In this document: one piece after another, positions 3,299 to 35,797 of the stretch
Numbering within the stretch: the first letter of the stretch is position 1
Layout of the letters: each line of letters opens with the position of its first letter
From: a virus
Taxonomy: Duplodnaviria > Heunggongvirae > Uroviricota > Caudoviricetes
DNA length: 37,086 nt
Reading direction: 5' to 3' (one strand)
Virus record (IMG/VR): IMGVR_UViG_2671180770_000020
Span: 1-37,086 of that record
Translations under genes and position numbers: made by a program
Notes under the pieces: generated by a model
Database searches by the model: none
Seen by the model: the letters and a program-made list of their open reading frames with translations, nothing else
What the model was told of the DNA's origin: nothing

Positions 3299-3375
3299 TT
3301 ACCGTTGAGGTAATAATTATGCTTATTTGGTTTGGTGTCAATAGATATGAGTTAAAAAAATTACCCGTAAGGTAA
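3299..3375. promoter_or_regulatory. Left operator/promoter region: two perfect TTACC-N5-GGTAA palindromes (3299-3313, 3361-3375) bracketing a putative leftward promoter
   Basis: Minus-strand TTGACA at 3336-3341 with a TAATTA/AATTAT -10 candidate at about 3313-3319; one palindrome overlaps the -10, the other lies upstream of the -35. Confidence 0.55.
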
Positions 3376-3432: not shown

Positions 3433-4017
3433 TTATTGTTTGCTTTTTTCGTTCTGGTTGATGACAAATTCAATGTAACTTTCGATCTTTGCTTTCTCGG
3501 TTTCGGGTAACAATGCGTAGCGTGAGCGGTCATAGTTGATAGTCGCAGGGTCGTGCGGGTGAATCAGTAGTTCATATCCGTGACGCCCGAATGCGGATGC
3601 AACATTCTCCAGGGTGGAAATGGAAACGCTGACCTCATTGTTTAACAGGCGACTGATTGTCACCTGGGCGACGCCGGATGCGCGGTGAAGTTTTCCCTGC
3701 GTTGAAAGGTCGCGGCTTTCGCTCATCCAGCGTTCCAGGTTGTGAGCCGCCAGCTGACCAATGTCGCTTGGGCCGACAGGCTGAAAACCTTCCTGAGAAA
3801 GCGAGCGATCGATATCAAGCCAGTTACGGGGTTTATTGGCGGCAGCTTCAATTTTTCGCGCAACCTGGTCGCCGATAACCTTCTTGCCAAGAGCCCAGCG
3901 GTTTACCAGATTTGCCTGAGTTCCAAGTTTTTCTGCCATCCGCGTCTGAACACCATTGAATTCACGGTCGATCAAGTCGTTGAGATTTTGCCTGCGGACG
4001 TCCTGGATACTTTTCAT
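3433..4017 (-). CDS. Prophage repressor (CI-like) with HTH_XRE domain(s) and no S24/LexA-type peptidase domain
   Basis: 194 aa; N-terminal Cro/CI-type HTH (...QTRMAEKLGTQANLVNRWALGKK...); a second HTH-like segment (...VTISRLLNNEVSVSISTLENVASAFG...); no Ala-Gly cleavage site or Ser/Lys peptidase motif seen; divergent from the cro-like gene. Confidence 0.7.
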   Translation of the reverse strand: MKSIQDVRRQNLNDLIDREFNGVQTRMAEKLGTQANLVNRWALGKKVIGDQVARKIEAAANKPRNWLDIDRSLSQEGFQPVGPSDIGQLAAHNLERWMSESRDLSTQGKLHRASGVAQVTISRLLNNEVSVSISTLENVASAFGRHGYELLIHPHDPATINYDRSRYALLPETEKAKIESYIEFVINQNEKSKQ

Positions 4018-24805: not shown

Positions 24806-26604
24806 GTTACTTTGGCCTTAATCCAGTAAACCAGAATCAGCAGCTTGACGAAGCAGCATCAAATCCAGCTGGCTTTAACAGCGATGTTGGTTTTTTCGAC
24901 AATGCTGTAGGAGCGGCATTGTCTGGTTTGTACTCCGGGCTGGTGGCAAAGCCAGATCAGTTGCTATGGGCAGGGATGGATAAAATCGTATCCCCGATTG
25001 CTCAGTTTGTTAACGAAAACACCTCGCTCAATGACACTTCAGTTTCATACATTGCTGAGCAGAGAAAACTAGCAGAGCAGCAGGTTAAGCGGCTGACGCC
25101 TGATGCCGCGACAACCGGAACCGCCGGGCAGGTTCTTTATGGGTTGTTCGATATGGGCGGGCAGGCTGTTGTCGGTACAACGCTCGGTGGTCCTGTCGGA
25201 GGTGCAGCGGCGGTAACTTCGCTACAGGGTTTTTCTGAGTTTGAACGGCTGACAGCACAGGGTGTTGATTTCAGGACGGCGCAGGAAGCGGGATTAGTGC
25301 AGGGCATTACTGCTGGTGCCGGAACACTGATCCCTATGAGCCTCGGGTTACGTGCTGGTGGTGCGCTGGCGGAAGGTGTGGCGGCTCAGCTTGCGCGGAC
25401 GGGTGAGAGTTCAGTGCGACGCGCCGCAGCAACCGCAGTACGTGCAACGCCAGATATTGCCTATGCCGCAGGTACAAATATTGCGTTCGGTATGGCACAG
25501 CGTGGGCTTACTGCAAAAACGCTTCGTGATGGTGGCTATAGCGAAATGGCTAACCAGTATGATGTGTTGGATCGACAGGCAATTGCTATTGATGCTGTTC
25601 TTGGGGTGGCGTTTGGTGGTGTCGGCAGATTTATTAACTCTCGCGGCGAGTCTACAAACGCACCAAATTTTTCACCAGTTGATATCGATGCTGCACTGGC
25701 GGCGAATGCCGCTCATCATGCTGAAATTGATATTGCGCCCGGCGTGCCGATCAACGTGCTTTCGCGCAATTCTCACATTCAGGCTCTGCGAAAAGCTATG
25801 TCTGATGTTAGCCAGGGGAGACCTGTAGACGTTGCCAGCATTGTTGAGTCTGCATCTTTCAGTGAAATTCCTGGGCGCAAGAGTCTGCTGTCTCAGGCAG
25901 TTAATGAGGCTCTGTCATCTGTAGATGATGGAGTAACGGCGCGCGCTATAGAAAATCGGTTGCTTGAAGAACAGGCCGCGCAGCTTTTGCCGCGTGGAGA
26001 TAGACAGGTTTACCAGTCTGAAATCGCTAATAGCCAACGAATTATTGAAAATCTCACTGAACAGCGCGCACAAATTCTTGCAGAAGAGCCAACCGGTAGC
26101 GGTAAAGCTTTGTCTCGTGCTCGATCAGATAAACAGGTCAGACTTCGCGATATTGACCAACGAATCCGGCAGGCACAAGAACGCCTGGAATTTTCCCGTA
26201 ACGCGTTGGCACCGCATGAGCCTGGCGGTCAGTTTTTTGAAGCTCGAGCAGAACTGGCACGGCGACAGCAGGCTGAAAGTGAACTTAATGCTCAGGCTGT
26301 TTCATTCTATAAAACAGCAGAGGTCAGTACGCCAGACGAAGTAGCTCCTTTTGAGCCCGGTAAGATATTGCAACAGGCAGAACAAAAGATGATGGCAGAT
26401 CCGGCAGGAGATATTGATCTGCGCATAGCTGAAGATTCGCTGCTTGAATCACCGGACATGATAATAACCGTGCTGGATGATGATGGTAATCCACAATCGC
26501 GCAGCGCGCGTGAAGTGCTGGATGAAGCGAACAGGGAAAGTGAACAGGCAATACAGGATTCCAGCCTGTTTGATGTCGCTGTGGCGTGTTTCTTGAGAGG
26601 TTAA
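24802..26604 (+). CDS. Large virion protein (600 aa; putative internal/ejection protein)
   Basis: Ala/Gly-rich N-terminal half with hydrophobic stretches; ATGA overlap with the upstream gene. Confidence 0.45.
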   Translation: MSYFGLNPVNQNQQLDEAASNPAGFNSDVGFFDNAVGAALSGLYSGLVAKPDQLLWAGMDKIVSPIAQFVNENTSLNDTSVSYIAEQRKLAEQQVKRLTPDAATTGTAGQVLYGLFDMGGQAVVGTTLGGPVGGAAAVTSLQGFSEFERLTAQGVDFRTAQEAGLVQGITAGAGTLIPMSLGLRAGGALAEGVAAQLARTGESSVRRAAATAVRATPDIAYAAGTNIAFGMAQRGLTAKTLRDGGYSEMANQYDVLDRQAIAIDAVLGVAFGGVGRFINSRGESTNAPNFSPVDIDAALAANAAHHAEIDIAPGVPINVLSRNSHIQALRKAMSDVSQGRPVDVASIVESASFSEIPGRKSLLSQAVNEALSSVDDGVTARAIENRLLEEQAAQLLPRGDRQVYQSEIANSQRIIENLTEQRAQILAEEPTGSGKALSRARSDKQVRLRDIDQRIRQAQERLEFSRNALAPHEPGGQFFEARAELARRQQAESELNAQAVSFYKTAEVSTPDEVAPFEPGKILQQAEQKMMADPAGDIDLRIAEDSLLESPDMIITVLDDDGNPQSRSAREVLDEANRESEQAIQDSSLFDVAVACFLRG

Positions 26605-26609
26605 ATTAA

Positions 26610-29084
26610 ATGAGACAGGAATGTATACAAGCGGTCCAGCAGGCGGCGCAGCGCACGTTAACGGCGCGAGAAATACAGAACATTGAAGACCGCATTTATC
26701 GAAATATGCGCTCCATTGCTCGTGATGACCCGATGTCGTGGAGACAACTTTCCGAATCAGAGCGGCTATATCGTGCAGCACAATTGGCATCTGAAGAATT
26801 ACAGCGAGAAGCGGCATTAAAGAAACGTCGTGTGGCCCTCACTATAGCCGCACGTCAGAGATTGGATAAATTTATCAATAGCTATCAAGGGGCTGATGGG
26901 AAACTCGGCGCTCTTAACCGTACTATTGCTTTTAATGCAGACGGTAAATCGAATTTCCTCTCTGTTGAGTCCAGAACAAAAGCCACTCGTGATTATGCAT
27001 TGAGTCAATTGCAAGAGGCATTTGAAGCAGTTGATCCTCGCTTTTTTGGCCTGTTTGAAGATGAAGCTGGCGTGCGTGACCTAGTATATGAAATGCGAGG
27101 GCAAAATACTGGCAATGCTAAAGCAAGAAAAGGTGCTAAGGCGTGGAGAGAAGTGACAGATCTACTGCGCCGCCGGTTTAATGATGCTGGTGGGGACATT
27201 GGCTATCTCGAAAACTGGGGGATCCCTCAACATCATTCTATGGAAAAGGTTGGGGCGGTATCAAAGGATAAGTGGGTTAGCGATGTTATAGGTAAGCTGG
27301 ATCGCAAATATTATATCCGAGCCGATGGACAACTGATGAATGATGCCGAGTTGTCTGCATTTCTTGGAGAGGCTTATAACACGATCGCTACTGGTGGGCT
27401 GAATAAGCTTACTGATACCGGAATGCGAATTTCCAGCGCACGTGCTAACCGTGGTAATGCATCACGACAGATACATTTCAAAGATGCAGATTCCTATCTG
27501 CAATATCAGCAACTTTATGGCGATCGCTCTCTATGGGAAATCATGGTCGGTCACCTGGAAGGTATCAGTAAAGATATTGCACTGGTGGAAACATATGGCC
27601 CAAACCCCGATCATGTTTTCCGCTCTCTTCTTGATCAGGTGAAGGCAGAAACGGCAACAGCTAACCCGAGTAAAACCGGTAAAGTCGAGCGGCTGGCGAA
27701 CAACACAGAGAATCTGTACAACTTTATTTCCGGAAAGACACAGCCTGTAGCGAATCCGCACATCGCGCGATGGTCTGACAATATCCGCAACTGGCTGGTT
27801 GCCAGCAGACTCGGATCCGCGTTGCTATCATCGTTCTCTGATCTTGGAACCATGTATCTGTCTGCGAAGGTGACCAACCTTCCAATGAACCAGTTATTCC
27901 GCAACCAGCTTGAAGCTATGGACCCAACGAACCGTACTGAGCTTGCGCGGGCGCGCCGCGCTGGTCTGGCGATGGAATCTCTACTTGGCAGCGTTAACCG
28001 CTGGGCGATGGATAATATGGGGCCGTCTGTGTCTCGTTGGGCGGCAACGGCGGTAATGCGTGCCAGTGGACTTACAGCATGGTCAGATGCGCACAAGCGC
28101 GCCTATGGCGTAACAATGATGGGAAGCCTGGGAGAAGTAGTGTCACGGACACCAGACCTTCGTAGCCTCGATGGCTCTGATTTTCGTATCCTGAAAAGCA
28201 AAGGGATTACTGAAACAGACTGGAGCGTATGGAAGCTGGCGCAACAGGAGGACTGGGGGAACGGCAATAATACGATGCTGACACCGGAAAGCATTATGCG
28301 TATCCCTGATTCAGCAGTTAAACATCTTGGTGAGCCTGAACGTGTGAAATTTGAGGCAATGCGTAAACTGCTCGGTGCCGTAACTGAAGAAGTTGATATG
28401 GCTGTTATTACACCTGGCGCACGTGAACAGATGTTCGTAGGGTCTGGTCTTCAGCGTGGAACATGGAAAGGTGAATTAACGAGAAGTGTTTTCCTGTTTA
28501 AATCGTTCCCTATCTCGGTTGTTATGCGTCACTGGTCACGCGCTATGGGTATGCCGTCTGCTGGTGGGCGTGCGGCATATATTGCGACGTTTATTGCCAG
28601 TACGACCATTCTTGGCGCTTTGTCGCAGCAACTTAACGACCTTGCGTCTGGTCGTAATTCTCGAGAGATGACAGGAGAAGGTGCCGCAAAATTCTGGCTT
28701 GGTGCTCTACTGAAAGGTGGTGGCCTTGGCCTTTACGGTGACTTTTTATTGTCAGATCACACTAGGTACGGAAGCGGCGCGCTGGCGTCGATGCTTGGCC
28801 CGGTAGCTGGTCTGGTTGATGACGTAGTGAAGATTGCTCAGGGCATACCGTTAAATGCTGTGGAAGGGAAGAGTGAGCAGACTGGTGGTGATCTGGTGAA
28901 GCTGGGGAAAGGTTTGATGCCAGGTGCGAATCTCTGGTACTTAAAGGCGGCTCTCGATCATATGATCTTTAACCAGATGCAGGAGTATTTTTCACCAGGC
29001 TATTTGCGTAAAATGGAGCAACGTTCGAAGAAAGAGTTTAATCAGACATACTGGTGGCGACCTCAGGATGTCACTCCGCAATAA
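26610..29084 (+). CDS. Large virion protein (824 aa; putative internal/ejection protein)
   Basis: Last large gene of the late operon; Gly-rich hydrophobic segment near the C-terminus (...LGALLKGGGLGLYGDFLL...). Confidence 0.45.
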   Translation: MRQECIQAVQQAAQRTLTAREIQNIEDRIYRNMRSIARDDPMSWRQLSESERLYRAAQLASEELQREAALKKRRVALTIAARQRLDKFINSYQGADGKLGALNRTIAFNADGKSNFLSVESRTKATRDYALSQLQEAFEAVDPRFFGLFEDEAGVRDLVYEMRGQNTGNAKARKGAKAWREVTDLLRRRFNDAGGDIGYLENWGIPQHHSMEKVGAVSKDKWVSDVIGKLDRKYYIRADGQLMNDAELSAFLGEAYNTIATGGLNKLTDTGMRISSARANRGNASRQIHFKDADSYLQYQQLYGDRSLWEIMVGHLEGISKDIALVETYGPNPDHVFRSLLDQVKAETATANPSKTGKVERLANNTENLYNFISGKTQPVANPHIARWSDNIRNWLVASRLGSALLSSFSDLGTMYLSAKVTNLPMNQLFRNQLEAMDPTNRTELARARRAGLAMESLLGSVNRWAMDNMGPSVSRWAATAVMRASGLTAWSDAHKRAYGVTMMGSLGEVVSRTPDLRSLDGSDFRILKSKGITETDWSVWKLAQQEDWGNGNNTMLTPESIMRIPDSAVKHLGEPERVKFEAMRKLLGAVTEEVDMAVITPGAREQMFVGSGLQRGTWKGELTRSVFLFKSFPISVVMRHWSRAMGMPSAGGRAAYIATFIASTTILGALSQQLNDLASGRNSREMTGEGAAKFWLGALLKGGGLGLYGDFLLSDHTRYGSGALASMLGPVAGLVDDVVKIAQGIPLNAVEGKSEQTGGDLVKLGKGLMPGANLWYLKAALDHMIFNQMQEYFSPGYLRKMEQRSKKEFNQTYWWRPQDVTPQ

Positions 29085-29093
29085 GGAAGTGTT

Positions 29094-29267
29094 GTGTTTT
29101 TAATTATTTTGAGTGTGATAATTTCTGGTGGGTTGTTATTTATTGACCGCTACAAATATTTTCTTAACCCTCAGACTCAAGCTATTTGCTGGTTCATCTT
29201 TGTTGTGCAGGGAATAGTTCTTGTTGCAAGCCTTATTGAGGGGAGGCCTCTGATTTTTACTGGGTAA
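29094..29267 (+). CDS. Small hydrophobic protein (57 aa)
   Basis: Hand-translated from GTG 29094 (AAGGAAG upstream): VFLIILSVIISGGLLFIDRYKYFLNPQTQAICWFIFVVQGIVLVASLIEGRPLIFTG; missing from the ORF track because it is short. Confidence 0.3.
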   Translation: MFLIILSVIISGGLLFIDRYKYFLNPQTQAICWFIFVVQGIVLVASLIEGRPLIFTG

Positions 29268-29279
29268 ATAGGTGACTAC

Positions 29280-29576
29280 ATGCAAGCGATAGGATTCATT
29301 GTTTATATCGTCGTTGGCCTTTTTCAGTTGGCAGCAATTATGGCTGGGCTTGAATCATGGTGGGGATTGCACTGGATAATTGCAGCCCCCATTGCTTTCA
29401 TCGTGAGCTATATTCCATTTGTTGGAGCGATTGTTGGTATGGTTGGCGCTGTGGATGTATGGCGGTGGGAGTGGTGGCAGGCTGGCCTTCTCTTCTTTGG
29501 TGGGATCATCTTTGCTATTGTCTGCGGTGGAATGTCATCATTTTTCGAACGGCTATCATTCAGAAAAGGAACGTGA
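29280..29576 (+). CDS. Integral membrane protein (98 aa, about 3-4 predicted TM helices)
   Basis: AGGTGA upstream of ATG 29280; strongly hydrophobic with Trp-rich loops; followed by a terminator. Confidence 0.5.
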   Translation: MQAIGFIVYIVVGLFQLAAIMAGLESWWGLHWIIAAPIAFIVSYIPFVGAIVGMVGAVDVWRWEWWQAGLLFFGGIIFAIVCGGMSSFFERLSFRKGT

Positions 29577-29585
29577 CATGTCACA

Positions 29586-29609
29586 GGCCGCTTTCGCGGC
29601 CTTGTTTTT
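29586..29609 (+). terminator. Intrinsic terminator after the membrane-protein gene
   Basis: GGCCGC-tttc-GCGGCC followed by TTGTTTTT. Confidence 0.55.
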
Positions 29610-29648
29610 AACGAATGCCACCGCCGCCCGGGCGGGAATCCGCAGACA

Positions 29649-29671
29649 CAAAAAAGCCCGCGTCGCGGGCT
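29649..29671 (-). terminator. Intrinsic terminator after the minus-strand gene 29679-30314
   Basis: Minus strand AGCCCGC-gac-GCGGGCT followed by TTTTTT (A-run 29650-29655 on plus). Confidence 0.55.
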
Positions 29672-29678
29672 TAACGAA

Positions 29679-30314
29679 TTATTCTATTGGCAGCTTATGC
29701 TTTGAAATTATGGCCAATCTGTTTTGGAAGTTTTCCGCATCACCCCACAACCAGGTTTCACCTTTCTCAAGCTCTTCCTCGTTATTCATCTCTATCAGTT
29801 CGCATGTCATCATGTCGTAACCATAGAGGTGGAGGCCAAGTTCCAGTGCGTCATACATGCGAGCCTGCCAGAACGACATGCCTTCATGAGTCTGGTTGCG
29901 ATCAGACACGATGATATCGTACCGTTCCAAGAGGTAGTTCATGAAGATGATGCCGGCGAAATCATGAAGCACAGCACGATGCTTAGGCTTCTGGGTTCTC
30001 CATACCAATATCTGCGTGACAGGTCGGCAGTTAAGATAGCTGTCAGGCTGGATAATGACACGATTGTAATACACAACCTCTTCGGTGAGGTCATTTATCA
30101 GTGCCAGTTCAAAGTGCGCCTGTGGAATCTCGCCTTTCTTACGATCGTCTACACGGACAACGCGGTATCCAGGAGCCAGAGAAACGCCTTTGACATCAGA
30201 TGTGACATCGTTGCCGTTCACTAACTCTGAATACAGGGCGCGGTTGTCTGGAGTTTCGTTCAGATGAGCGAAAACCTCAGTTACCTTTGCCGGATTCAGC
30301 AGTTGTTGTGGCAT
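29679..30314 (-). CDS. Hypothetical cytoplasmic protein (211 aa) in the accessory island
   Basis: ATG 30314 with GAGGTGA upstream; no recognisable motif. Confidence 0.5.
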   Translation of the reverse strand: MPQQLLNPAKVTEVFAHLNETPDNRALYSELVNGNDVTSDVKGVSLAPGYRVVRVDDRKKGEIPQAHFELALINDLTEEVVYYNRVIIQPDSYLNCRPVTQILVWRTQKPKHRAVLHDFAGIIFMNYLLERYDIIVSDRNQTHEGMSFWQARMYDALELGLHLYGYDMMTCELIEMNNEEELEKGETWLWGDAENFQNRLAIISKHKLPIE

Positions 30315-30352: not shown

Positions 30353-30367
30353 TTACCCGTAAGGTAA
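30353..30367. promoter_or_regulatory. Perfect palindrome TTACCcgtaaGGTAA (identical 15-mer to the 3361-3375 copy)
   Basis: Between the antirepressor stop (with a downstream hairpin at 30409-30424) and the start of gene 29679-30314. Confidence 0.5.
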
Positions 30368-30432
30368 TAGTACGCTATTCACCTGCAATCTGTACAGAAT
30401 TATTTAAAGGCACATCCCTGTGCCGCCGCCCG

Positions 30433-31083
30433 TCAGAAGAACCCTGCCTTGTCGTTGATGTATTCCGCGTGAGTCTGGATATCACGCAGGCATTTGCTCA
30501 CACCGACGATGTAGCAGAACATGGTGGTCAGCTCCGCCGCCGCGCCCGATACATCGTGCCCGTCTTCCTGTAACTGGTTCAGCAGATTCATCAGCAGTGA
30601 GTTCTCCGTCAGGCCGAGAACACCAGATGGGGAATGAATCAGACTGCGGTAGCCGGGCTTCAGCGGTGCACTGTATTCTTTTTTGTCTTCCAGCTTGATC
30701 GCCTCCATAATGGCTGGCATGAAGCCTGACAAGACCTTCTCCACTTTTGTTTCTTGTTGTCTTAAACGTTTCTCGCATTCAATGAAGTAGCGTCGCACCT
30801 GGCGACCTTTTTCGTTACGCTCGACCATCGCCAGCTCTTTGGCTGTATCGAGGGTGAGGTGGTAGTCTTTTGCAGGACGGCCTCTGCCTATTTTTTCCCG
30901 AACTTGGGAAATAATCATAAAGTCTTGATTTTCAACGAAACCATATTCAGCAATTCGTTCGACAATCCACGAAGCAAATCGCTTACCCACATCGAGGAAA
31001 GTGTGTAAATCACGGGCATTAACGAGAAGAGCGGTTTCGTTGGATATAGTGCCGTTGAATACGGGGATGAGTTGAGCGTTCAT
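30433..31083 (-). CDS. Antirepressor (AntA-type N-terminal domain)
   Basis: 216 aa; N-terminal ...LIPVFNGT...NARDLHTFLDVGKRFASWIVERIAEYGFVENQDFMI... matches the remembered AntA/AntB antirepressor domain; GGAG upstream of ATG 31083. Confidence 0.7.
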   Translation of the reverse strand: MNAQLIPVFNGTISNETALLVNARDLHTFLDVGKRFASWIVERIAEYGFVENQDFMIISQVREKIGRGRPAKDYHLTLDTAKELAMVERNEKGRQVRRYFIECEKRLRQQETKVEKVLSGFMPAIMEAIKLEDKKEYSAPLKPGYRSLIHSPSGVLGLTENSLLMNLLNQLQEDGHDVSGAAAELTTMFCYIVGVSKCLRDIQTHAEYINDKAGFF

Positions 31084-31240
31084 TATGGCGTCTCCACTTA
31101 GCGAATTACATCACCACCGCTGAGACCAATCAGATGGTGGTGAACTGAACGGAGTTGGTCTTACCGGCCTAAGTGGTACCGGCGTCCTTTCGGACCCCCA
31201 TTCAGCCCACCATAATTCTGGCATGACTGTGCTATACGCA

Positions 31241-31263
31241 TAAAAAAACCACGTCTGGCGTGG
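31241..31263 (-). terminator. Intrinsic terminator between the small Ant-like gene and the antirepressor gene
   Basis: Minus strand CCACG-ccaga-CGTGG followed by TTTTTTTAT. Confidence 0.45.
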
Positions 31264-31354
31264 TATGCGCCACTTAGTAATCCGGGAGACCAATCCCGGC
31301 ACTGGATTTTGCCAGTGCCCGATTACTATGGCACAAGAGGAGTGCGATGTAAAT

Positions 31355-31400: not shown

Positions 31401-31658
31401 TTATCTGGTTTGTTTTCGTAATTGTTCGGCACAATAGTCGAGATGTGTTTGCAGATCCTGCATAGACATCTGTGAGCTGGTGACGTAGTTAATCAGTGCA
31501 GTCAGTTCGGCAAGTGGGCCATCGACATTAAATCCATCCTTATCGAGATCCCGGAGTAATTTCATCAAGTGCGATCCCTCCACCAGTGACCTGACGCCTC
31601 CCGGCGTGTGAATCCTTTCGGTAAATCCCTCTTCCAGTGGATAGTGATACTGCTGCAT
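31401..31658 (-). CDS. Small protein (85 aa) paralogous to the C-terminal domain of the adjacent antirepressor; LexA-box-associated
   Basis: MQQYHYPLEEGFTERIHTPGGVRSLVEGSHLMKLLRDLDKDGFNVDGPLAELTALINY...DLQTHLDY aligns by eye with antirepressor residues about 130-205 (...YSAPLKPGYRSLIHSPSGVLGLTENSLLMNLLNQLQEDGHDVSGAAAELTTMF...DIQTHAEY); GGAGAAG upstream of ATG 31658. Confidence 0.6.
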   Translation of the reverse strand: MQQYHYPLEEGFTERIHTPGGVRSLVEGSHLMKLLRDLDKDGFNVDGPLAELTALINYVTSSQMSMQDLQTHLDYCAEQLRKQTR

Positions 31659-31679: not shown

Positions 31680-31695
31680 CTGTATAAATATACAG
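31680..31695. promoter_or_regulatory. LexA (SOS) box CTGT-N8-ACAG
   Basis: aaCTGTATAAATATACAGta at 31678-31697, a near-consensus match to TACTGTATATATATACAGTA, 22-37 nt upstream of the small Ant-like gene start on the transcribed side. Confidence 0.7.
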
Positions 31696-31734: not shown

Positions 31735-31749
31735 TCACCTGAAAGGTAA
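31735..31749. promoter_or_regulatory. Near-perfect palindrome copy (tCACCtgaaaGGTAA) upstream of the LexA box
   Basis: About 40 bp beyond the LexA box in the divergent intergenic region shared with the tail fiber gene. Confidence 0.4.
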
Positions 31750-31853: not shown

Positions 31854-33848
31854 ATGACGGTCTCAACCGAAGTTGACCACAACGAATATACAGGTAACGG
31901 TGTTACAACTACGTTCCCTTATACCTTTAGGATTTTCCAGAAATCTGATCTGGTGGTGCAGGTGATTGACCTTGACGAGAATATCACTGTGCTGGCTCTT
32001 GATACTGATTACGCAGTCACTGGTGCGGGAGGCTATAGAGGCGGTAATATAATACTGTCGAAGGCATTGGCCAACGGTTATCAGATCTCTATATCACGAG
32101 AGCTCCCGGTTACTCAGGAAACAGATCTGCGTAATCAGGGTAAATTCTTTGCAGAGGTGCATGAGGATGCGTTTGATAAGCTAACGATGCTGATTCAACA
32201 ATGTCGTAGCTTGTTTCGTCTTGCACTTTGCAAGCCATCAAGTATTGCAAACTGGTACGACGCTTTAAATAACAGGATTAGAAATCTTAAAGATCCAGAA
32301 AGCCCTCAGGATGCAGTAACTTTAAGTTATCTTGAAGGGTATATAGAAGGTGGTGATAGTACTTTGCGTCCAGATATTACAAGAACTGGAGCTGTAGGGA
32401 ATAATATACAGCAAGCCATAAACTTATCTATAGCCGGTCAAACTGTAATTACGATGAAAGATGATGAAATTGTATCTTCATTGTTAAATGAATATGGTGT
32501 TGAAATTGAGCAACGCAGGGGGCGTGTATTTAATACAGAAGGTGTTCAACTAACAACGTATTCTGACCCTCGTTCCCGTTTTGTAACTGGTGACCAATAT
32601 CTTAATTATGTTATTAGCAAGATGATAAAAGCAGATGGCGTGGATAAATCACAGAAAACATATATTTTGTGGTCTGGTGACTCCACGATTGTTGGTGTTA
32701 ACTCTGAATTATGGCCACCAGCAACTATTGCTGATTTTTATGCAAAAAGGTATGGAATTATTGATGTAAAAAATACATCGTTAGGTCATTCAGGTAAAAC
32801 TCTATACGAATGGGGTAATTGGTATATTGATCAGGAATGGTCTGTTTTTTCTGCTGCTGATTTGATTGTTTTACGCTGGGGAATTAACGATCCATATTAT
32901 GGTTATACATTGGATCAAGTAAAAGACGCATTAGATAGAGGCCTTTCCAAGTTACGAAATAACAAATCAGTTTCCCAGCAATCAATTATTATCATGTCCC
33001 CAAACTCAACATCAGACACACCAAACGGACGTGATGAAAAATGGTATGAACAGTTAACAGCCGTACTTAGAGCCAAAGCAAAACAATATAAGTGTATGTT
33101 TTTTGATACTTACGGTATGTGGCAGGATTCGCGAGGATCTGCTGGTAACTGGCTTGACGACCCTTATGGCGATGGCAGGGGAATACACCCAAACTCAACA
33201 TTTAGCGCACAGATACATAAATTATTATTTGAATATATTTATGGACCGTGTGCTGTTATAAATGGGAGTAGCAACCTTTTTTCTAACAATGGTTCTTCCA
33301 TACAATTCATCAATAGCTCATATCCGCCAAATACTTTTCACATGGGGACTTCATGGTGGAGAACAAACCCTGATGATGCTTCTTGGCCTCTTGACGGTGT
33401 TATTCAGGTTGATAGATTTGTTGACGGAATAGTAGTACAAAAAAATTATGGTTATTCTTCAGATAATGCTCGCGTTTGCTTAATGAGGATTGGAAGGATT
33501 AGTGAGAATACATGGAGTACATGGCGAGGTAATCAGTATGATATGAGTGGCATATTGCAAAATGGTTGGTCTGTAGGTGAGGCAAGAAGTGGAACATATC
33601 AGAAATCAGCCGAGGGCGTTGTTACTTTATCTGCTGTTTTAACAGGTGGAAATACATCTGTTGGCACAGTTATTATGGTATTGCCAGAAGGGTTTAGACC
33701 AAAGAATGATATTTCTTATATTCCATCAGGTACTGATTCATCGGTTGCCCTCATTAATATACTTTCAAACGGTAAAGTTACAATTCAGAGCTATCCGTCA
33801 GGAACAGTTCTTGTAATTAATACGACATTCCCTTCATTAGTTAATTAG
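31854..33848 (+). CDS. Tail fiber/tailspike with C-terminal SGNH/GDSL-type esterase domain
   Basis: 664 aa; N-terminal virion-anchoring-like segment (MTVSTEVDHNEYTGNGVTTTFPYTF...); GDS(L)-like motif ...ILWSGDSTIVG... and downstream ...DGRGIHPN... (Asp/His catalytic-type motif); C-terminal two-thirds is clearly more AT-rich than the N-terminus. Confidence 0.7.
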   Translation: MTVSTEVDHNEYTGNGVTTTFPYTFRIFQKSDLVVQVIDLDENITVLALDTDYAVTGAGGYRGGNIILSKALANGYQISISRELPVTQETDLRNQGKFFAEVHEDAFDKLTMLIQQCRSLFRLALCKPSSIANWYDALNNRIRNLKDPESPQDAVTLSYLEGYIEGGDSTLRPDITRTGAVGNNIQQAINLSIAGQTVITMKDDEIVSSLLNEYGVEIEQRRGRVFNTEGVQLTTYSDPRSRFVTGDQYLNYVISKMIKADGVDKSQKTYILWSGDSTIVGVNSELWPPATIADFYAKRYGIIDVKNTSLGHSGKTLYEWGNWYIDQEWSVFSAADLIVLRWGINDPYYGYTLDQVKDALDRGLSKLRNNKSVSQQSIIIMSPNSTSDTPNGRDEKWYEQLTAVLRAKAKQYKCMFFDTYGMWQDSRGSAGNWLDDPYGDGRGIHPNSTFSAQIHKLLFEYIYGPCAVINGSSNLFSNNGSSIQFINSSYPPNTFHMGTSWWRTNPDDASWPLDGVIQVDRFVDGIVVQKNYGYSSDNARVCLMRIGRISENTWSTWRGNQYDMSGILQNGWSVGEARSGTYQKSAEGVVTLSAVLTGGNTSVGTVIMVLPEGFRPKNDISYIPSGTDSSVALINILSNGKVTIQSYPSGTVLVINTTFPSLVN

Positions 33849-33999
33849 TTGTTTTTAGATTGCGACTAAAAATCGCAATCTAAAAAACACAAATGATGAT
33901 TTTGTTGTTTACTTATAACATAATAATTCATATATGGTTTGGTTTTGATGGTGTTCTACCAGAAACTGGAGATTTGATGAATGTTAAATGGTGGTTGAT

Positions 34000-34404
34000 A
34001 TGTCATTTCAAATAACTAATGATCATGTAAATCAGTATCTTACTGTTGGTTCTCTTGCTGCGGTTATTGGTGGGACTCCACCTGAAGTTGCTTTGGGTTC
34101 ACTTGCCGGAGCTGTGATTTTTGTTACCTCTGCTATCGAGTATCCAATCCGTCGTCGTGTTCTTCTGTCAGTGCTCAGCTTTATTTGCGGCCTTCTCTTT
34201 TACAAACCAGCAGCATCAATTCTTATTGGCATAGCCAGCCTGATCCCTACCATCACACAGGACTCTTTTGAGAAAGGGATTGTTTTCTCTGCTGGCGCAT
34301 TCGTGTCAGCAATTGTCGCTGTGCGTATTGGTATCTGGCTCTATCACCGTTCCGATAATCCACGCGAATTAATGCCGGGGAGAAAAGACGATGGTAACGC
34401 ATGA
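34000..34404 (+). CDS. Holin-like membrane protein
   Basis: 134 aa from ATG 34000 (GGTGG upstream); multiple TM segments; first gene of the lysis cassette. Confidence 0.5.
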   Translation: MSFQITNDHVNQYLTVGSLAAVIGGTPPEVALGSLAGAVIFVTSAIEYPIRRRVLLSVLSFICGLLFYKPAASILIGIASLIPTITQDSFEKGIVFSAGAFVSAIVAVRIGIWLYHRSDNPRELMPGRKDDGNA

Positions 34405-34699
34405 GCTTTTTTTACTTATCACCAATGCGGTTATTTGTACTGGCATAGCAATTCGCGTTGTCACTTTCCAGCGTAACGGATCTCAACATCGAAGATGGGG
34501 TGGGTGGATTGCTTATTTCCTGATTGTTGCTGCTGCGAGTATTCCAGTTCGTGTCGTTTATGCAATCTGGTTACGCACGCCAATGGCTGTGGATTTATCT
34601 GAGGTCATTATCAACGCTGTCATGCTTGCTGCGGTTCTTAAAACTCGCGGTAACGTCGTTCAGATTTTCAAAATAACGAGGTCTAAATATGGAGATTAA
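34391..34699 (+). CDS. Second small membrane protein (holin/antiholin-like)
   Basis: 102 aa, about 3 TM helices, overlapping its neighbours on both sides. Confidence 0.45.
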
Positions 34700-35318
34700 A
34701 CAATTCCAGCGAGCTGCTGGTATTAGCGAGGCGCTGGCCGCTCGCTGGTTCTCGCATATAACTTCTGCGATGAAAGAGTTTGGTATCAGCAAACCAGAAG
34801 ATCAGGCAATGTTTATTGCTCAGGTCGGGCATGAGTCTGGAGGCTTCACCCGGTTGCAGGAAAATTTCAACTACAGCGTAACCGGATTGGCTAACTTCGT
34901 TCAGGCTGGGCGTCTCACTCAGGGGCAGGCTAATGCACTTGGTCGCCGTGCTGGTGAACCACCATTGCCACTCGAGCGCCAGCGCGCGATCGCAAATCTG
35001 GTGTACAGCAAACGCATGGGGAACAATGCCCCTGGTGATGGCTGGAATTACCGTGGGCGCGGGCTTATCCAGATTACCGGTTTGAATAACTATCGTGACT
35101 GTGGAAACGGTCTGAAAGTTGACCTGCTGGAGAATCCTGAACTGTTGGCGCAGGACGAATACGCGGCTCGTAGCGCGGCGTGGTTCTTCTCCAGCAAAGG
35201 TTGCATGAAGTATACCGGCGATATTGCACGTGTAACTCTGATTATCAATGGTGGCAGGAATGGCATCGACGACCGGCGCGCGCGGTACGTCACTGCCAGT
35301 AAGGTGCTGGCTGTATGA
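34689..35318 (+). CDS. Endolysin, glycoside hydrolase family 19 (chitinase-like lysozyme)
   Basis: 209 aa; ...[12 protein letters not shown]...[17 protein letters not shown]... are the conserved catalytic-region motifs of GH19 endolysins. Confidence 0.8.
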
Positions 35319-35797
35319 TCTGGGTATTCGTAAAAGCATACTGGAAACAGATGCTTATCGTGTTGATGCTTGCTGCTCTGTTCATCGTCGGAGTGGTTGC
35401 TTGGAATATACACGGCAGCCGCCAGTACGATGCCGGGTATGCGCAGGCGGAAGAAGACCGCAAAGACGAAGAAGACAAAGTTCGTCAGTACTACGAACAG
35501 GAGAAAGTGACCAATGAACGTGAAGCTCAGCAGAGGATCGACCAGGCGCGCAATGATGCTCTTGATGCTGCCGCTCGCGCTGGCCGGTTGCAGCAACAAC
35601 TCTTTGCCATCCGTGAGCAGCTCAGGCAGTATAACGCCATTGTCGGCGCTGGGACGTCAGCCGCAGACACCGGAGTTTTGCTTGCCGACGTGCTCAGCAA
35701 ATCTCTCGAGAGAAACAGACAACTGGCAGAGTATGCTGACCGGGCAGCCGAAGCCGGAAGAGTCTGCGAAAAACAGTATGACACCCTGACCAGATAG
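35315..35797 (+). CDS. Rz-like inner-membrane spanin
   Basis: 160 aa; N-terminal TM helix then coiled coil; ATGA overlap with the endolysin; contains an embedded lipoprotein ORF. Confidence 0.6.
35514..35789 (+). CDS. Rz1-like outer-membrane lipoprotein spanin, embedded in the Rz frame
   Basis: Alternative-frame ORF wholly inside the Rz gene; lipobox ...LPLALAGC...; Pro/Ser-rich mature part. Confidence 0.55.
   Translation: MNVKLSRGSTRRAMMLLMLPLALAGCSNNSLPSVSSSGSITPLSALGRQPQTPEFCLPTCSANLSRETDNWQSMLTGQPKPEESAKNSMTP

What the first reader, a model, noticed from the sequence alone, without database searches (positions are those of the whole stretch)
29094..30314. Cluster of small membrane proteins plus an unknown gene between the ejection-protein genes and the antirepressor
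Two hydrophobic ORFs (57 aa and 98 aa, each with its own ribosome-binding site) are terminated by a hairpin and faced by a convergent 211-aa ORF of unknown function that has its own palindrome copy upstream (30353-30367). Small prophage-encoded membrane proteins at this position are typical of lysogenic-conversion or superinfection-exclusion functions such as blocking DNA injection or modifying surface polysaccharide.
Basis: inference. Interest (0 to 1): 0.5.

Follow-up and report, generated by a model that had tools for sequence, protein, structure and literature searches.

The report
Swappable accessory cassettes in an epsilon15-like prophage
Two unrelated accessory cassettes of an epsilon15/phiV10-like E. 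coli prophage sit back to back here (two small membrane proteins ending the virion operon, and a repressor-controlled soluble protein with an acetyltransferase-like fold); all three genes are real and uncharacterised, but this kind of variable prophage region is ordinary.

Summary
All three ORFs, their ribosome-binding sites, the hairpin and the palindrome are real.

The window is an epsilon15/phiV10-like (Uetakevirus) prophage. The region holds two independent accessory cassettes separated by a pair of convergent terminators.

- **ORF57 and ORF98.** These are small inner-membrane proteins tacked onto the 3' end of the late ejection-protein operon, with no promoter of their own detected. In relatives this slot always encodes envelope proteins: small membrane proteins, lipoproteins or secreted proteins. 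The cassette is absent from viable relatives such as phiV10. Superinfection exclusion is the best guess. It is untested.

- **ORF211.** This is a soluble, acidic protein from a large family (about 920 clusters at 50% identity) with no Pfam or PADLOC model. Its predicted structure has a GNAT (acetyltransferase-like) fold. It lies downstream of the antirepressor gene, behind a conserved promoter whose -10 abuts the palindrome. The epsilon15 RefSeq record annotates that palindrome as the repressor operator, and it occurs 14 times in the window against 0.66 expected. ORF211 is therefore probably silent in stable lysogens and switched on at induction or infection.

Surface-polysaccharide conversion is not supported. 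Those genes lie after the tailspike in relatives, and ORF211 occurs with at least five tailspike types. Functions remain inferred; interest is moderate to low.

The parts
26610..29084 (+). Last large virion/ejection protein gene (824 aa, like phiV10 p20 and epsilon15 gp17). Context only: it is the end of the conserved late operon.
   Evidence: ORF list. phiV10 p20 is annotated 'virion structural protein' and matches at about 97% nucleotide identity at its 3' end.
29094..29267 (+). ORF57: small protein with two predicted transmembrane segments. GTG start, RBS AAGGAAG, 9 nt after the stop of the 824-aa gene.
   Evidence: Family of 56-58 aa proteins, 74-98% identical, in E. coli, Citrobacter, Klebsiella, Salmonella and Enterobacter. 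Frame and length are kept in Klebsiella phage BUCT711.
29280..29576 (+). ORF98: conserved small polytopic inner-membrane protein (phrog_3075, function unknown). Predicted helices at 2-28, 32-42, 46-59 and 65-97. Trp-rich motifs ESWWGLHW and VWxWEWWQAG.
   Evidence: 41 synonymous versus 9 non-synonymous codon changes against BUCT711. In Cronobacter prophages its start lies 1 nt after the ejection gene's stop.
29585..29610 (+). Rho-independent terminator ending the late operon (stem 29585-29602 plus TGTTTTT).
29654..29672 (-). Rho-independent terminator ending the leftward unit, directly after ORF211.
29679..30314 (-). ORF211: soluble acidic protein (phrog_1349, function unknown) with a predicted GNAT-like fold. 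It is the cargo of the variable slot downstream of ant.
30353..30367 (.). Repressor-operator palindrome TTACCCGTAAGGTAA.
   Evidence: Enrichment of 14 sites versus 0.66 expected. The same motif is annotated as protein_bind 'repressor' in the epsilon15 RefSeq record.
30367..30396 (-). Putative promoter of the cargo slot. The -10 TACTAT (30372->30367) ends on the first base of the operator. In relatives the -35 is TTGCAG with a 17-nt spacer. The window has a 7-nt deletion, which leaves TGTACA (30396->30391) at 18 nt.
   Evidence: Alignment A5 of eight relatives carrying different cargo. Coordinates read. Promoter function is inferred, not shown.
30409..30424 (-). 6-bp hairpin (GGCACA-GGGA-TGTGCC) followed by a U/A-rich tail, just after the ant stop. 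It may be a weak terminator or a stabiliser; it is conserved in E. coli relatives.
30433..31083 (-). AntA-family antirepressor gene (context).
   Evidence: Pfam PF08346 E = 8e-28; phrog_377.

Best explanation
The region is the accessory junction of an epsilon15/phiV10-like temperate podovirus. It holds two independent, exchangeable cassettes placed tail to tail, insulated by two convergent terminators.

**Cassette A (ORF57 + ORF98).**
- Two small inner-membrane proteins are appended to the 3' end of the late ejection-protein operon and transcribed by read-through.
- In relatives this slot always holds envelope-targeted proteins.
- The most likely job (inferred) is exclusion at the cell envelope: blocking genome entry by related phages into an infected cell, and possibly a lysogenic one. 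This would work in the manner of P22 SieA, T4 Imm or HK97 gp15.

**Cassette B (ORF211).**
- This is a cytoplasmic protein with a GNAT-like fold from a large uncharacterised family.
- It occupies the cargo slot at the distal end of the leftward gp19-like/ant unit. In relatives that slot holds YafO or HicAB toxin modules, or DUF4760/DUF2335 proteins.
- It is driven by a conserved promoter whose -10 abuts the phage repressor's operator.
- It should therefore be off in the stable lysogen and come on together with the antirepressor, at SOS induction or just after infection.
- It most likely binds an acyl-CoA or similar ligand and modifies or sequesters a cytoplasmic target, to the phage's advantage in conflict with the host or with rival phages.

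The gene anatomy, conservation, fold and slot variability are shown. The expression logic and both functions are inferred.
For: **Phage type and synteny**
-.

**Cassette A**
- The gaps before ORF57 and ORF98 are 9 and 12 nt. No terminator occurs before 29585 and no sigma-70-like site lies on the + strand in 26600-29300.
- The pair is present as a unit in 205 of 5426 E. coli genomes.
- It is absent from phiV10 and epsilon15, which carry unrelated two-transmembrane ORFs at the same place.
- In nine relatives the slot holds lipoproteins, signal-peptide proteins or small membrane proteins.
- ORF98 is under strong purifying selection.
- ORF98 accompanies ejection proteins only 24-28% identical to the window's.

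**Cassette B**
- The AF2 model has pLDDT 86 and pTM 0.83.
- Foldseek against the PDB and against viral models agrees.
- The family has 920 representatives at 50% clustering and no Pfam or PADLOC model.
- Purifying selection: 92 synonymous versus 23 non-synonymous codon changes.
- Family members sit at module junctions of several phage types:
  - next to the portal gene of a P2-like prophage;
  - beyond int in a 186-like prophage;
  - between the major tail protein and the tape measure gene;
  - after the lysis genes of phage LLS.
- Alleles only about 30% identical occupy the same Uetakevirus slot.

**Regulation**
- The conserved junction TTGCAG-17-TACTAT|TACC-N5-GGTAA is present whatever the cargo.
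- The operator annotation comes from the epsilon15 record.
- The Rep repressor of the epsilon15-like phage SPC32H binds palindromic sites as a tetramer, and Ant disassembles it (PMC9638917).
- A perfect LexA box lies at 31680-31695.
- SOS-driven antirepressor induction in such phages is reviewed in PMC7380047.
Against: **No functional data**
- No experiment bears on any of the three proteins.

**ORF211: only the fold links it to GNATs**
- No Pfam acetyltransferase hit was found for any of 119 family members scanned.
- hhalign against RimI gives probability 0.1%.
- The Q/R-x-x-G-x-G/A loop is not recognisable after strand 4 (R105-T-Q-K-P-K).
- The best structural match is a non-catalytic acetyl-CoA-sensing domain.

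**ORF211: regulation is uncertain**
- The window's promoter has a 7-nt deletion that spoils the TTGCAG spacing.
- Repression by Rep at this site is inferred from an annotation, not measured.
- Toxin-antitoxin cargo in the same slot would be pointless if it were fully repressed, so the promoter may be leaky or active in lysogens.

**ORF57/98**
- There is no homology to any known exclusion protein.
- There is no evidence of expression in lysogens.
Confidence: 0.5

Rival explanations
1. ORF211 is a prophage-encoded anti-phage defence gene. It would be a single-gene abortive-infection or exclusion effector, expressed in the lysogen and protecting it from other phages.
For: - It sits in places where prophages keep defence cargo: beside the portal gene at the edge of a P2-like prophage, at a prophage edge beyond int, and in a slot that otherwise holds YafO and HicAB toxin modules.
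- Highly divergent alleles occupy one slot.
Against: - No PADLOC model matches it or 64 family members.
- There is no adjacent antitoxin or partner gene.
- The repressor operator abuts the -10, which argues for silence in the lysogen.
- Structural relatives also occur in virulent phages such as Agrobacterium phage Atu_ph07.
Confidence: 0.25
2. ORF57 and ORF98 serve the phage's own lytic cycle. They would be holin/antiholin-like lysis-timing factors, or membrane helpers for ejection-protein handling.
For: - They lie in the late operon without a promoter of their own.
- ORF98 starts 1 nt after the ejection gene's stop in Cronobacter prophages.
- There are weak sub-threshold hits to the Hol44 holin family: E = 0.027, in 4 of 31 members.
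Against: - The holin hit scores 15 bits against a cut-off of 29. Equally weak hits go to DUF4112 and DUF4134, so this looks like hydrophobic composition.
- The phage has a complete lysis cassette (two holins, an endolysin and Rz) at 33988-35797.
- phiV10, ZX5 and PAS61 lack both ORFs; phiV10's ejection-protein gene is about 97% identical in nucleotides at its 3' end.
- ORF98 pairs with ejection proteins only 24-28% identical.
Confidence: 0.15
3. This is the first reader's reading: the island is a lysogenic-conversion module that alters the surface polysaccharide, matched to the phage's receptor specificity.
For: - epsilon15-like phages are classic serotype converters (PMC7380047).
- The tailspike here carries an SGNH/GDSL esterase domain.
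- A GNAT-fold protein could in principle acetylate a sugar precursor.
Against: - Conversion genes in this group lie after the tailspike.
- No hits were found to Gtr, acyltransferase_3, Wzy or glycosyltransferase families.
- ORF211 occurs with tailspikes annotated as SGNH, GH28-related, endosialidase, 'tail fiber domain' and 'putative tail protein'.
- ORF57/98 occur independently of ORF211: 205 versus 13 genomes.
Confidence: 0.06

Closest known systems
P22 immI region with sieA (gene order 7-20-16, sieA, mnt-arc-ant, tailspike 9)
   Same: The layout is the same: ejection-protein genes, then a small inner-membrane accessory gene, then an antirepressor module, then the tailspike. The P22 gene order is from my own knowledge; SieA as a P22 exclusion factor is listed in PMC7380047.
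   Different: ORF57/98 show no sequence similarity to SieA or to any named exclusion family. Here ant is controlled by a Rep operator, a LexA box and a C4/IsrK-type RNA rather than by Mnt/Arc. No exclusion phenotype is known.
epsilon15 gp18 (64 aa) and phiV10 p21 (46 aa, 'putative integral membrane protein')
   Same: The position is identical: directly after the last ejection gene and before the terminator. Both have two predicted transmembrane segments.
   Different: They are unrelated in sequence. The window carries two genes, and ORF98 is a larger four-helix protein conserved across genera.
GNAT (Gcn5-related N-acetyltransferase) superfamily, including the acetyl-CoA-binding C-terminal domain of M. 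tuberculosis ICL2/Rv1916
   Different: There is no sequence-profile match. The glycine-rich pyrophosphate loop is not recognisable. ORF211 has an extra N-terminal helical segment of about 45 residues. Activity is untested.
Prophage accessory/defence hotspots (for example the old/tin locus of P2 beside the portal gene; lambdoid morons)
   Same: ORF211-family genes sit at module junctions in at least five prophage architectures. In Uetakeviruses they share their slot with toxin-antitoxin cargo.
   Different: The family is not in PADLOC, and in this phage the cargo promoter carries the repressor operator.
P1/P7 immI (c4 antisense RNA, icd, ant) and Salmonella IsrK
   Same: The ant leader here matches Rfam C4 (61.2 bits) and isrK (67.7 bits), both above the gathering score.
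   Different: This concerns the neighbouring ant gene, not the finding itself. ORF211 lies downstream of ant with its own promoter-like element.

Membership tests
GNAT acyl-CoA N-acyltransferase superfamily (ORF211) | Mixed alpha/beta GNAT core fold | tested here: met
GNAT acyl-CoA N-acyltransferase superfamily (ORF211) | Sequence-profile match to an acetyltransferase family | tested here: not met
   No Pfam hit for ORF211 or for 119 family members scanned at permissive E-values. PDB profile searches were empty. hhalign against RimI gave probability 0.1%.
GNAT acyl-CoA N-acyltransferase superfamily (ORF211) | Q/R-x-x-G-x-G/A pyrophosphate-binding loop between strand 4 and helix 3 | tested here: inconclusive
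   By inspection the segment after strand 4 reads R105-T-Q-K-P-K-H, with no glycine. A conserved Gly (G121) lies later, inside helix 3. No structural superposition was available.
GNAT acyl-CoA N-acyltransferase superfamily (ORF211) | Acyl-CoA binding and transferase activity | not testable with these tools
   Needs biochemistry.
GNAT-type toxin of type II toxin-antitoxin systems (TacT/AtaT) | Adjacent small RHH/DUF1778 antitoxin gene in one operon | tested here: not met
   No ORF lies between the operator and the ATG, or between the stop codon and the terminator. Neighbouring small ORFs are not consistent across contexts.
Superinfection-exclusion membrane proteins (P22 SieA, T4 Imm, HK97 gp15) for ORF57/ORF98 | Small inner-membrane protein encoded in an accessory slot next to ejection or tail genes | tested here: met
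   Hydropathy and the AF2 model. The slot varies among relatives and always holds envelope proteins.
Superinfection-exclusion membrane proteins (P22 SieA, T4 Imm, HK97 gp15) for ORF57/ORF98 | Sequence homology to a characterised exclusion protein | tested here: not met
   No significant Pfam, PHROG-with-function, NCBIfam or PADLOC hit.
Superinfection-exclusion membrane proteins (P22 SieA, T4 Imm, HK97 gp15) for ORF57/ORF98 | Expression in the lysogen and an exclusion phenotype | not testable with these tools
   The only available check was a crude consensus scan. It found no + strand promoter in 26600-29300.
Holins (Hol44, superfamily V) for ORF98 | Score above the family's gathering threshold, and location in the lysis cassette | tested here: not met
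   15.1 bits against a cut-off of 29.2. The lysis cassette lies 4.4 kb away at 33988-35797.
O-antigen-modifying lysogenic-conversion modules (GtrABC, Oac, Wzy-beta plus inhibitor) | Homology to those enzymes, position after the tailspike, and linkage to tailspike type | tested here: not met
   No hits. In relatives such genes lie after the tailspike. ORF211 occurs with at least five tailspike types.
epsilon15-type repressor operator (palindrome 30353-30367) | TTACC-N5-GGTAA, clustered around the repressor gene and repeated at other promoters | tested here: met
   14 sites versus 0.66 expected, including clusters flanking the CI-like gene at 3433-4017. The identical motif is annotated as a 'repressor' binding site in NC_004775. 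Actual binding was not tested.

The most novel reading that the evidence does not exclude
The ORF211 family is a new class of single-gene effector in phage conflicts. It has about 920 clusters at 50% identity, no curated model and a GNAT-like fold. It would be carried as a mobile cassette together with its own repressor-responsive promoter and operator, and would modify a host or rival-phage target when the resident repressor is lifted. The same TTACC/GGTAA palindrome accompanies family members even in non-Uetakevirus phages, where it is the only copy in the genome or locus. That hints the switch is part of the cassette.
Probability: 0.25. Interest if true: 0.6.

Novelty: new member of a known kind. 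Interest (0 to 1): 0.35.

Why it matters
If the inferences hold, this junction offers two compact test cases.

- **Envelope slot.** The slot at the end of the ejection-protein operon swaps small envelope proteins. It may show how O-antigen-specific podoviruses exclude one another at the DNA-entry step.

- **ORF211 family.** This is a widespread, uncurated family of acetyltransferase-like proteins wired to the repressor/antirepressor switch. It is a candidate for a new defence or counter-defence activity.

In practical terms:
- The conserved promoter-operator junction is a good anchor for cataloguing cargo in the roughly 900 related E. coli prophage loci (919 of 5426 complete genomes matched the region).
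- The family deserves a curated model.

As it stands, this is a well-behaved variable accessory region with unknown functions, not a surprise.

Tried and rejected
**ORF211: searches that found nothing**
- Sequence searches against Pfam, NCBIfam, PADLOC and PDB sequences, as a single sequence and as profiles A1 and A2: nothing significant.
- Literature searches for WP_001136300 and phrog_1349: no papers.

**Tools or papers not available**
- The Foldseek afdb50 library was not available.
- The search for related loci with the diverse alignment A2 failed because it has no conserved stretch; A1 was used instead.
- The primary papers on epsilon15 (PMC2698709) and on SPC32H antirepression (PMC3807360) are not held. 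The operator assignment therefore rests on the epsilon15 RefSeq annotation and on secondary citations.

**Ideas considered and rejected**
- A LexA box upstream of ORF211: CTGTACAGATTGCAG has the wrong spacing. The only perfect box is at 31680-31695.
- ORF98 as a holin: sub-threshold hits of compositional type.
- Overlapping alternative-frame ORFs (29357-29611, 29419-29820, 29724-30224): rejected because third-position substitution patterns support the ORF98 and ORF211 frames.
- The Trp_leader hit at 29648-29755 is below threshold and is simply the terminator.
- tRNA scan of the region: none found.
Full report
**1. Observation.**
- ORF57 (29094-29267, GTG) follows AAGGAAG. ORF98 (29280-29576, ATG) follows TAGGTGA. 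Both are strongly hydrophobic: two segments in ORF57 and three to four in ORF98.
- The AF2 model of ORF98 is a confident four-helix protein: pLDDT 90, helices 2-28, 32-42, 46-59 and 65-97.
- A GC-rich hairpin with a T-tract at 29585-29610 ends the rightward unit. A second terminator at 29672-29654 on the other strand ends the convergent ORF211 (29679-30314).
- The palindrome TTACCCGTAAGGTAA is at 30353-30367, and an identical copy lies at 3361-3375.
- All three ORFs are genuine genes.
  - ORF98 differs from its Klebsiella phage BUCT711 homolog by 41 synonymous and 9 non-synonymous codons.
  - ORF211 differs from its Dickeya homolog by 92 and 23, with 103 of 134 nucleotide differences at third positions.
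  - ORF57 is less constrained against BUCT711 (12 versus 12). It keeps its frame and length and is called as a 56-58 aa protein in five enterobacterial genera.

**2. What the window is.**
- DNA matches and annotated relatives place it in the genus Uetakevirus, the epsilon15/phiV10-like temperate podoviruses: phiv142-3, HEMP4, phiV10 and TL-2011b.
- The local order is the conserved one:
  - three large virion/ejection proteins, the last of 824 aa at 26610-29084;
  - a small membrane ORF, then a terminator;
  - a leftward unit made of a gp19-like gene (31401-31658) and an antirepressor (30433-31083);
  - then the tailspike (31854-33848).
- epsilon15 itself shows the minimal form: gp17, gp18 (64 aa, two transmembrane segments), terminator, gp19, tailspike.
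- The lysis cassette lies elsewhere, at 33988-35797.

**3. Cassette A: ORF57 and ORF98.**
- The two genes follow the 824-aa gene with gaps of 9 and 12 nt. No terminator precedes them. A consensus scan finds no + strand promoter in 26600-29300. The simplest reading is that they are the last cistrons of the late operon.
- They are accessory.
  - The pair occurs as a unit in 205 of 5426 complete E. coli genomes, whereas the surrounding region matches 919 genomes.
  - The viable phages phiV10, ZX5 and PAS61 lack it; in phiV10 the 3' end of the ejection gene is about 97% identical in nucleotides.
- ORF57 and ORF98 can be separated. Cronobacter prophages have ORF98 alone, starting 1 nt after the ejection gene's stop. 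Dickeya has a different 51-aa membrane ORF, a 107-aa lipoprotein and ORF98.
- ORF98 travels with ejection proteins only 24-28% identical to the window's.
- What unites the slot is the destination of its products. In nine relatives inspected it encodes lipoproteins (137, 126 and 107 aa), signal-peptide proteins (118-212 aa) or small membrane proteins.
- No named family matches. The Hol44 holin hit (15 bits against a cut-off of 29) is no better than hits to DUF4112 and DUF4134, and looks compositional.

**4. Cassette B: the ORF211 protein.**
- ORF211 is soluble and acidic: 32 Asp+Glu against 21 Lys+Arg.
- Close homologs, all labelled 'hypothetical' or 'phage protein', are spread over Enterobacterales and Pseudomonas.
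- A profile search of 1.84 billion cluster representatives finds 920 with E <= 0.001.
- Neither ORF211 nor 119 family members scanned hit any Pfam family. ORF211 and the 64 members of alignment A2 hit no PADLOC model.
- The AF2 model built on 55 homologs is good: pLDDT 86, pTM 0.83.
  - NatD (8.4) and Hat1 (7.9);
- Foldseek on the PDB and on viral models agrees. It adds uncharacterised phage proteins of about 190-200 aa with TM-scores of 0.6-0.8.
- At sequence level the link cannot be shown; hhalign against RimI gives probability 0.1%.
- The glycine-rich CoA loop is not recognisable. The invariant block VSDxxQTxxGxxFW lies where GNATs contact the pantetheine arm (my inspection).
- I therefore file it as having a GNAT-like fold, with activity unknown.

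**5. Cassette B: where the ORF211 family sits.**
- In E. coli the gene is rare, present in 13 of 5426 genomes and always at this slot.
- In Dickeya it is at the same slot.
- Elsewhere it lies:
  - next to the portal gene at the edge of a P2-like Pseudomonas prophage;
  - beyond int of a 186-like Serratia prophage;
  - between the major tail protein and the tape measure gene of siphovirus prophages;
  - after the lysis genes of lambdoid phage LLS;
  - alone in Photorhabdus.
- Alleles only about 30% identical sit in the same Uetakevirus slot.
- In relatives the slot itself holds other cargo:
  - a YafO toxin with a small upstream ORF (TL-2011b);
  - HicA/HicB (Cronobacter);
  - DUF4760 or DUF2335 with a small 'transmembrane anchored protein';
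  - three small ORFs (phiv142-3);
  - almost nothing (phiV10, epsilon15).
- ORF211 co-occurs with tailspikes annotated in five different ways.

**6. Regulation.**
- TTACC-N5-GGTAA occurs 14 times at up to 1 mismatch against 0.66 expected. All sites are intergenic, and they cluster on both sides of the CI-like repressor gene at 3433-4017.
- The epsilon15 RefSeq record annotates exactly this motif as 'repressor' binding sites, at equivalent positions.
- The related SPC32H repressor binds palindromic sites as a tetramer that Ant disassembles (PMC9638917).
- An alignment of eight relatives shows a conserved junction downstream of ant: a hairpin, then TTGCAG-17-TACTAT, whose last T is the first base of the palindrome. 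This holds whatever cargo follows. In two cases the cargo's ribosome-binding site comes directly after the operator.
- The same geometry, with the -10 abutting the operator, is seen at the leftward early promoter (TTGACA-17-AATTAT, site 3299) and at the ant-leader promoter (TTGTAA-17-TATATT, site 31355).
- The window has a 7-nt deletion in the spacer, so its -35 is uncertain.
- Further upstream there is a perfect LexA box (31680-31695) before the gp19-like gene.
- Between that gene and ant there are above-threshold Rfam matches to isrK and to the C4 antisense RNA of the P1/P7 immI region.
- SOS-driven antirepressor synthesis in such phages is reviewed in PMC7380047.
- My inference is that the whole leftward unit, ORF211 included, is held down in the stable lysogen and released at induction or on infection.

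**7. Mechanism and rivals.**
- For ORF57/98 I favour envelope-level exclusion of incoming phage genomes. The arguments:
  - the slot is dedicated to envelope proteins;
  - it is dispensable;
  - it mirrors the sieA position of P22.
  
  A role in the phage's own lysis or ejection is less likely (0.15).
- For ORF211 I favour a ligand-binding or acyl-transferring cytoplasmic effector, made when the repressor is lifted, that helps the phage against host or rivals. A lysogen-expressed defence gene is the main rival (0.25). Its best support is the company the gene keeps. Its main weaknesses are the operator and the lack of any defence-model hit.
- Polysaccharide conversion is unlikely (0.06).
- None of these functions is shown.

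**8. Verdict.**
It is wrong to treat the three genes as one unit, and wrong about surface-polysaccharide modification.
- The region is a typical exchangeable prophage junction carrying uncharacterised members of known kinds.
- The ORF211 family, and the operator that travels with it, are the only parts that might repay experiments.

Noticed in passing
window 3299, 3361, 4073, 4121, 4458, 6404, 6466, 9432, 9450, 12383, 13001, 30353, 31355, 31735 (each site 15 nt): The repressor palindrome TTACC-N5-GGTAA is scattered over the whole genome in intergenic gaps, not only around the repressor gene: 14 sites against 0.66 expected. At several promoters the -10 hexamer ends on the first T of the site. 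This suggests one repressor silences many separate transcription units.
   Followed up: partly
window 31133-31331 (- strand): The leader of the antirepressor gene matches Rfam isrK (31318->31242, 67.7 bits) and C4 antisense RNA (31217->31133, 61.2 bits), both above the gathering score. There is also a sub-threshold c4-a1b1 target match. This points to a P1/P7 immI-type antisense-RNA control of ant in a podovirus.
   Followed up: partly
window 31680-31695: A perfect LexA box, CTGTATAAATATACAG, lies 22 nt upstream of the gp19-like gene's ATG (31658), next to a 1-mismatch repressor site at 31735-31749. The leftward gp19-like/ant unit looks SOS-controlled, as reported for SPC32H-type phages.
   Followed up: partly
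L074 (phage LLS) 42053-42067; L049 5926; L060 5794; L038 5925: In non-Uetakevirus phages the TTACC/GGTAA palindrome is the only copy in the locus (for LLS, in the whole 42.9-kb genome), and it lies 55-90 nt upstream of the ORF211-family gene. LLS gp57 is 89% identical to a Uetakevirus-slot allele, so the promoter and operator move with the cassette. Across the family, 77% of upstream regions carry a perfect palindrome with arms of 6 nt or more, against 12% of shuffles.
   Followed up: partly
window 30373-30390 versus L004, L001, L002: The window, like E. coli AMSHJX01, lacks 7 nt (ACTGGGG/ACTGTGG) in the spacer of the conserved cargo promoter. This shortens TTGCAG-17-TACTAT to a 10-nt spacer and may weaken or re-register the promoter.
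   Followed up: no
window 31854-33848: The tailspike carries a GDSL/SGNH esterase domain (Pfam E = 7e-15) behind a T7-tail-fibre-like N-terminus, which suggests a deacetylating receptor-binding protein. Relatives swap this for endosialidase, GH28-like and other heads.
   Followed up: no
L004 4556-4744 and L017 (E. coli E7, IAI39): In other ORF211 carriers a 10-codon mini-ORF (MRKFDEYEGV) and a second operator copy lie between the conserved junction and ORF211. The window looks like a deletion that fused the two operator copies, which hints that the palindromes act as recombination joints for cargo exchange.
   Followed up: no
L017 1-3800 (E. coli IAI39): The IAI39 copy of this prophage has IS3-family insertions that disrupt the ejection-protein genes, yet it keeps ORF211 and the neighbouring lipoprotein gene intact.
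   Followed up: no
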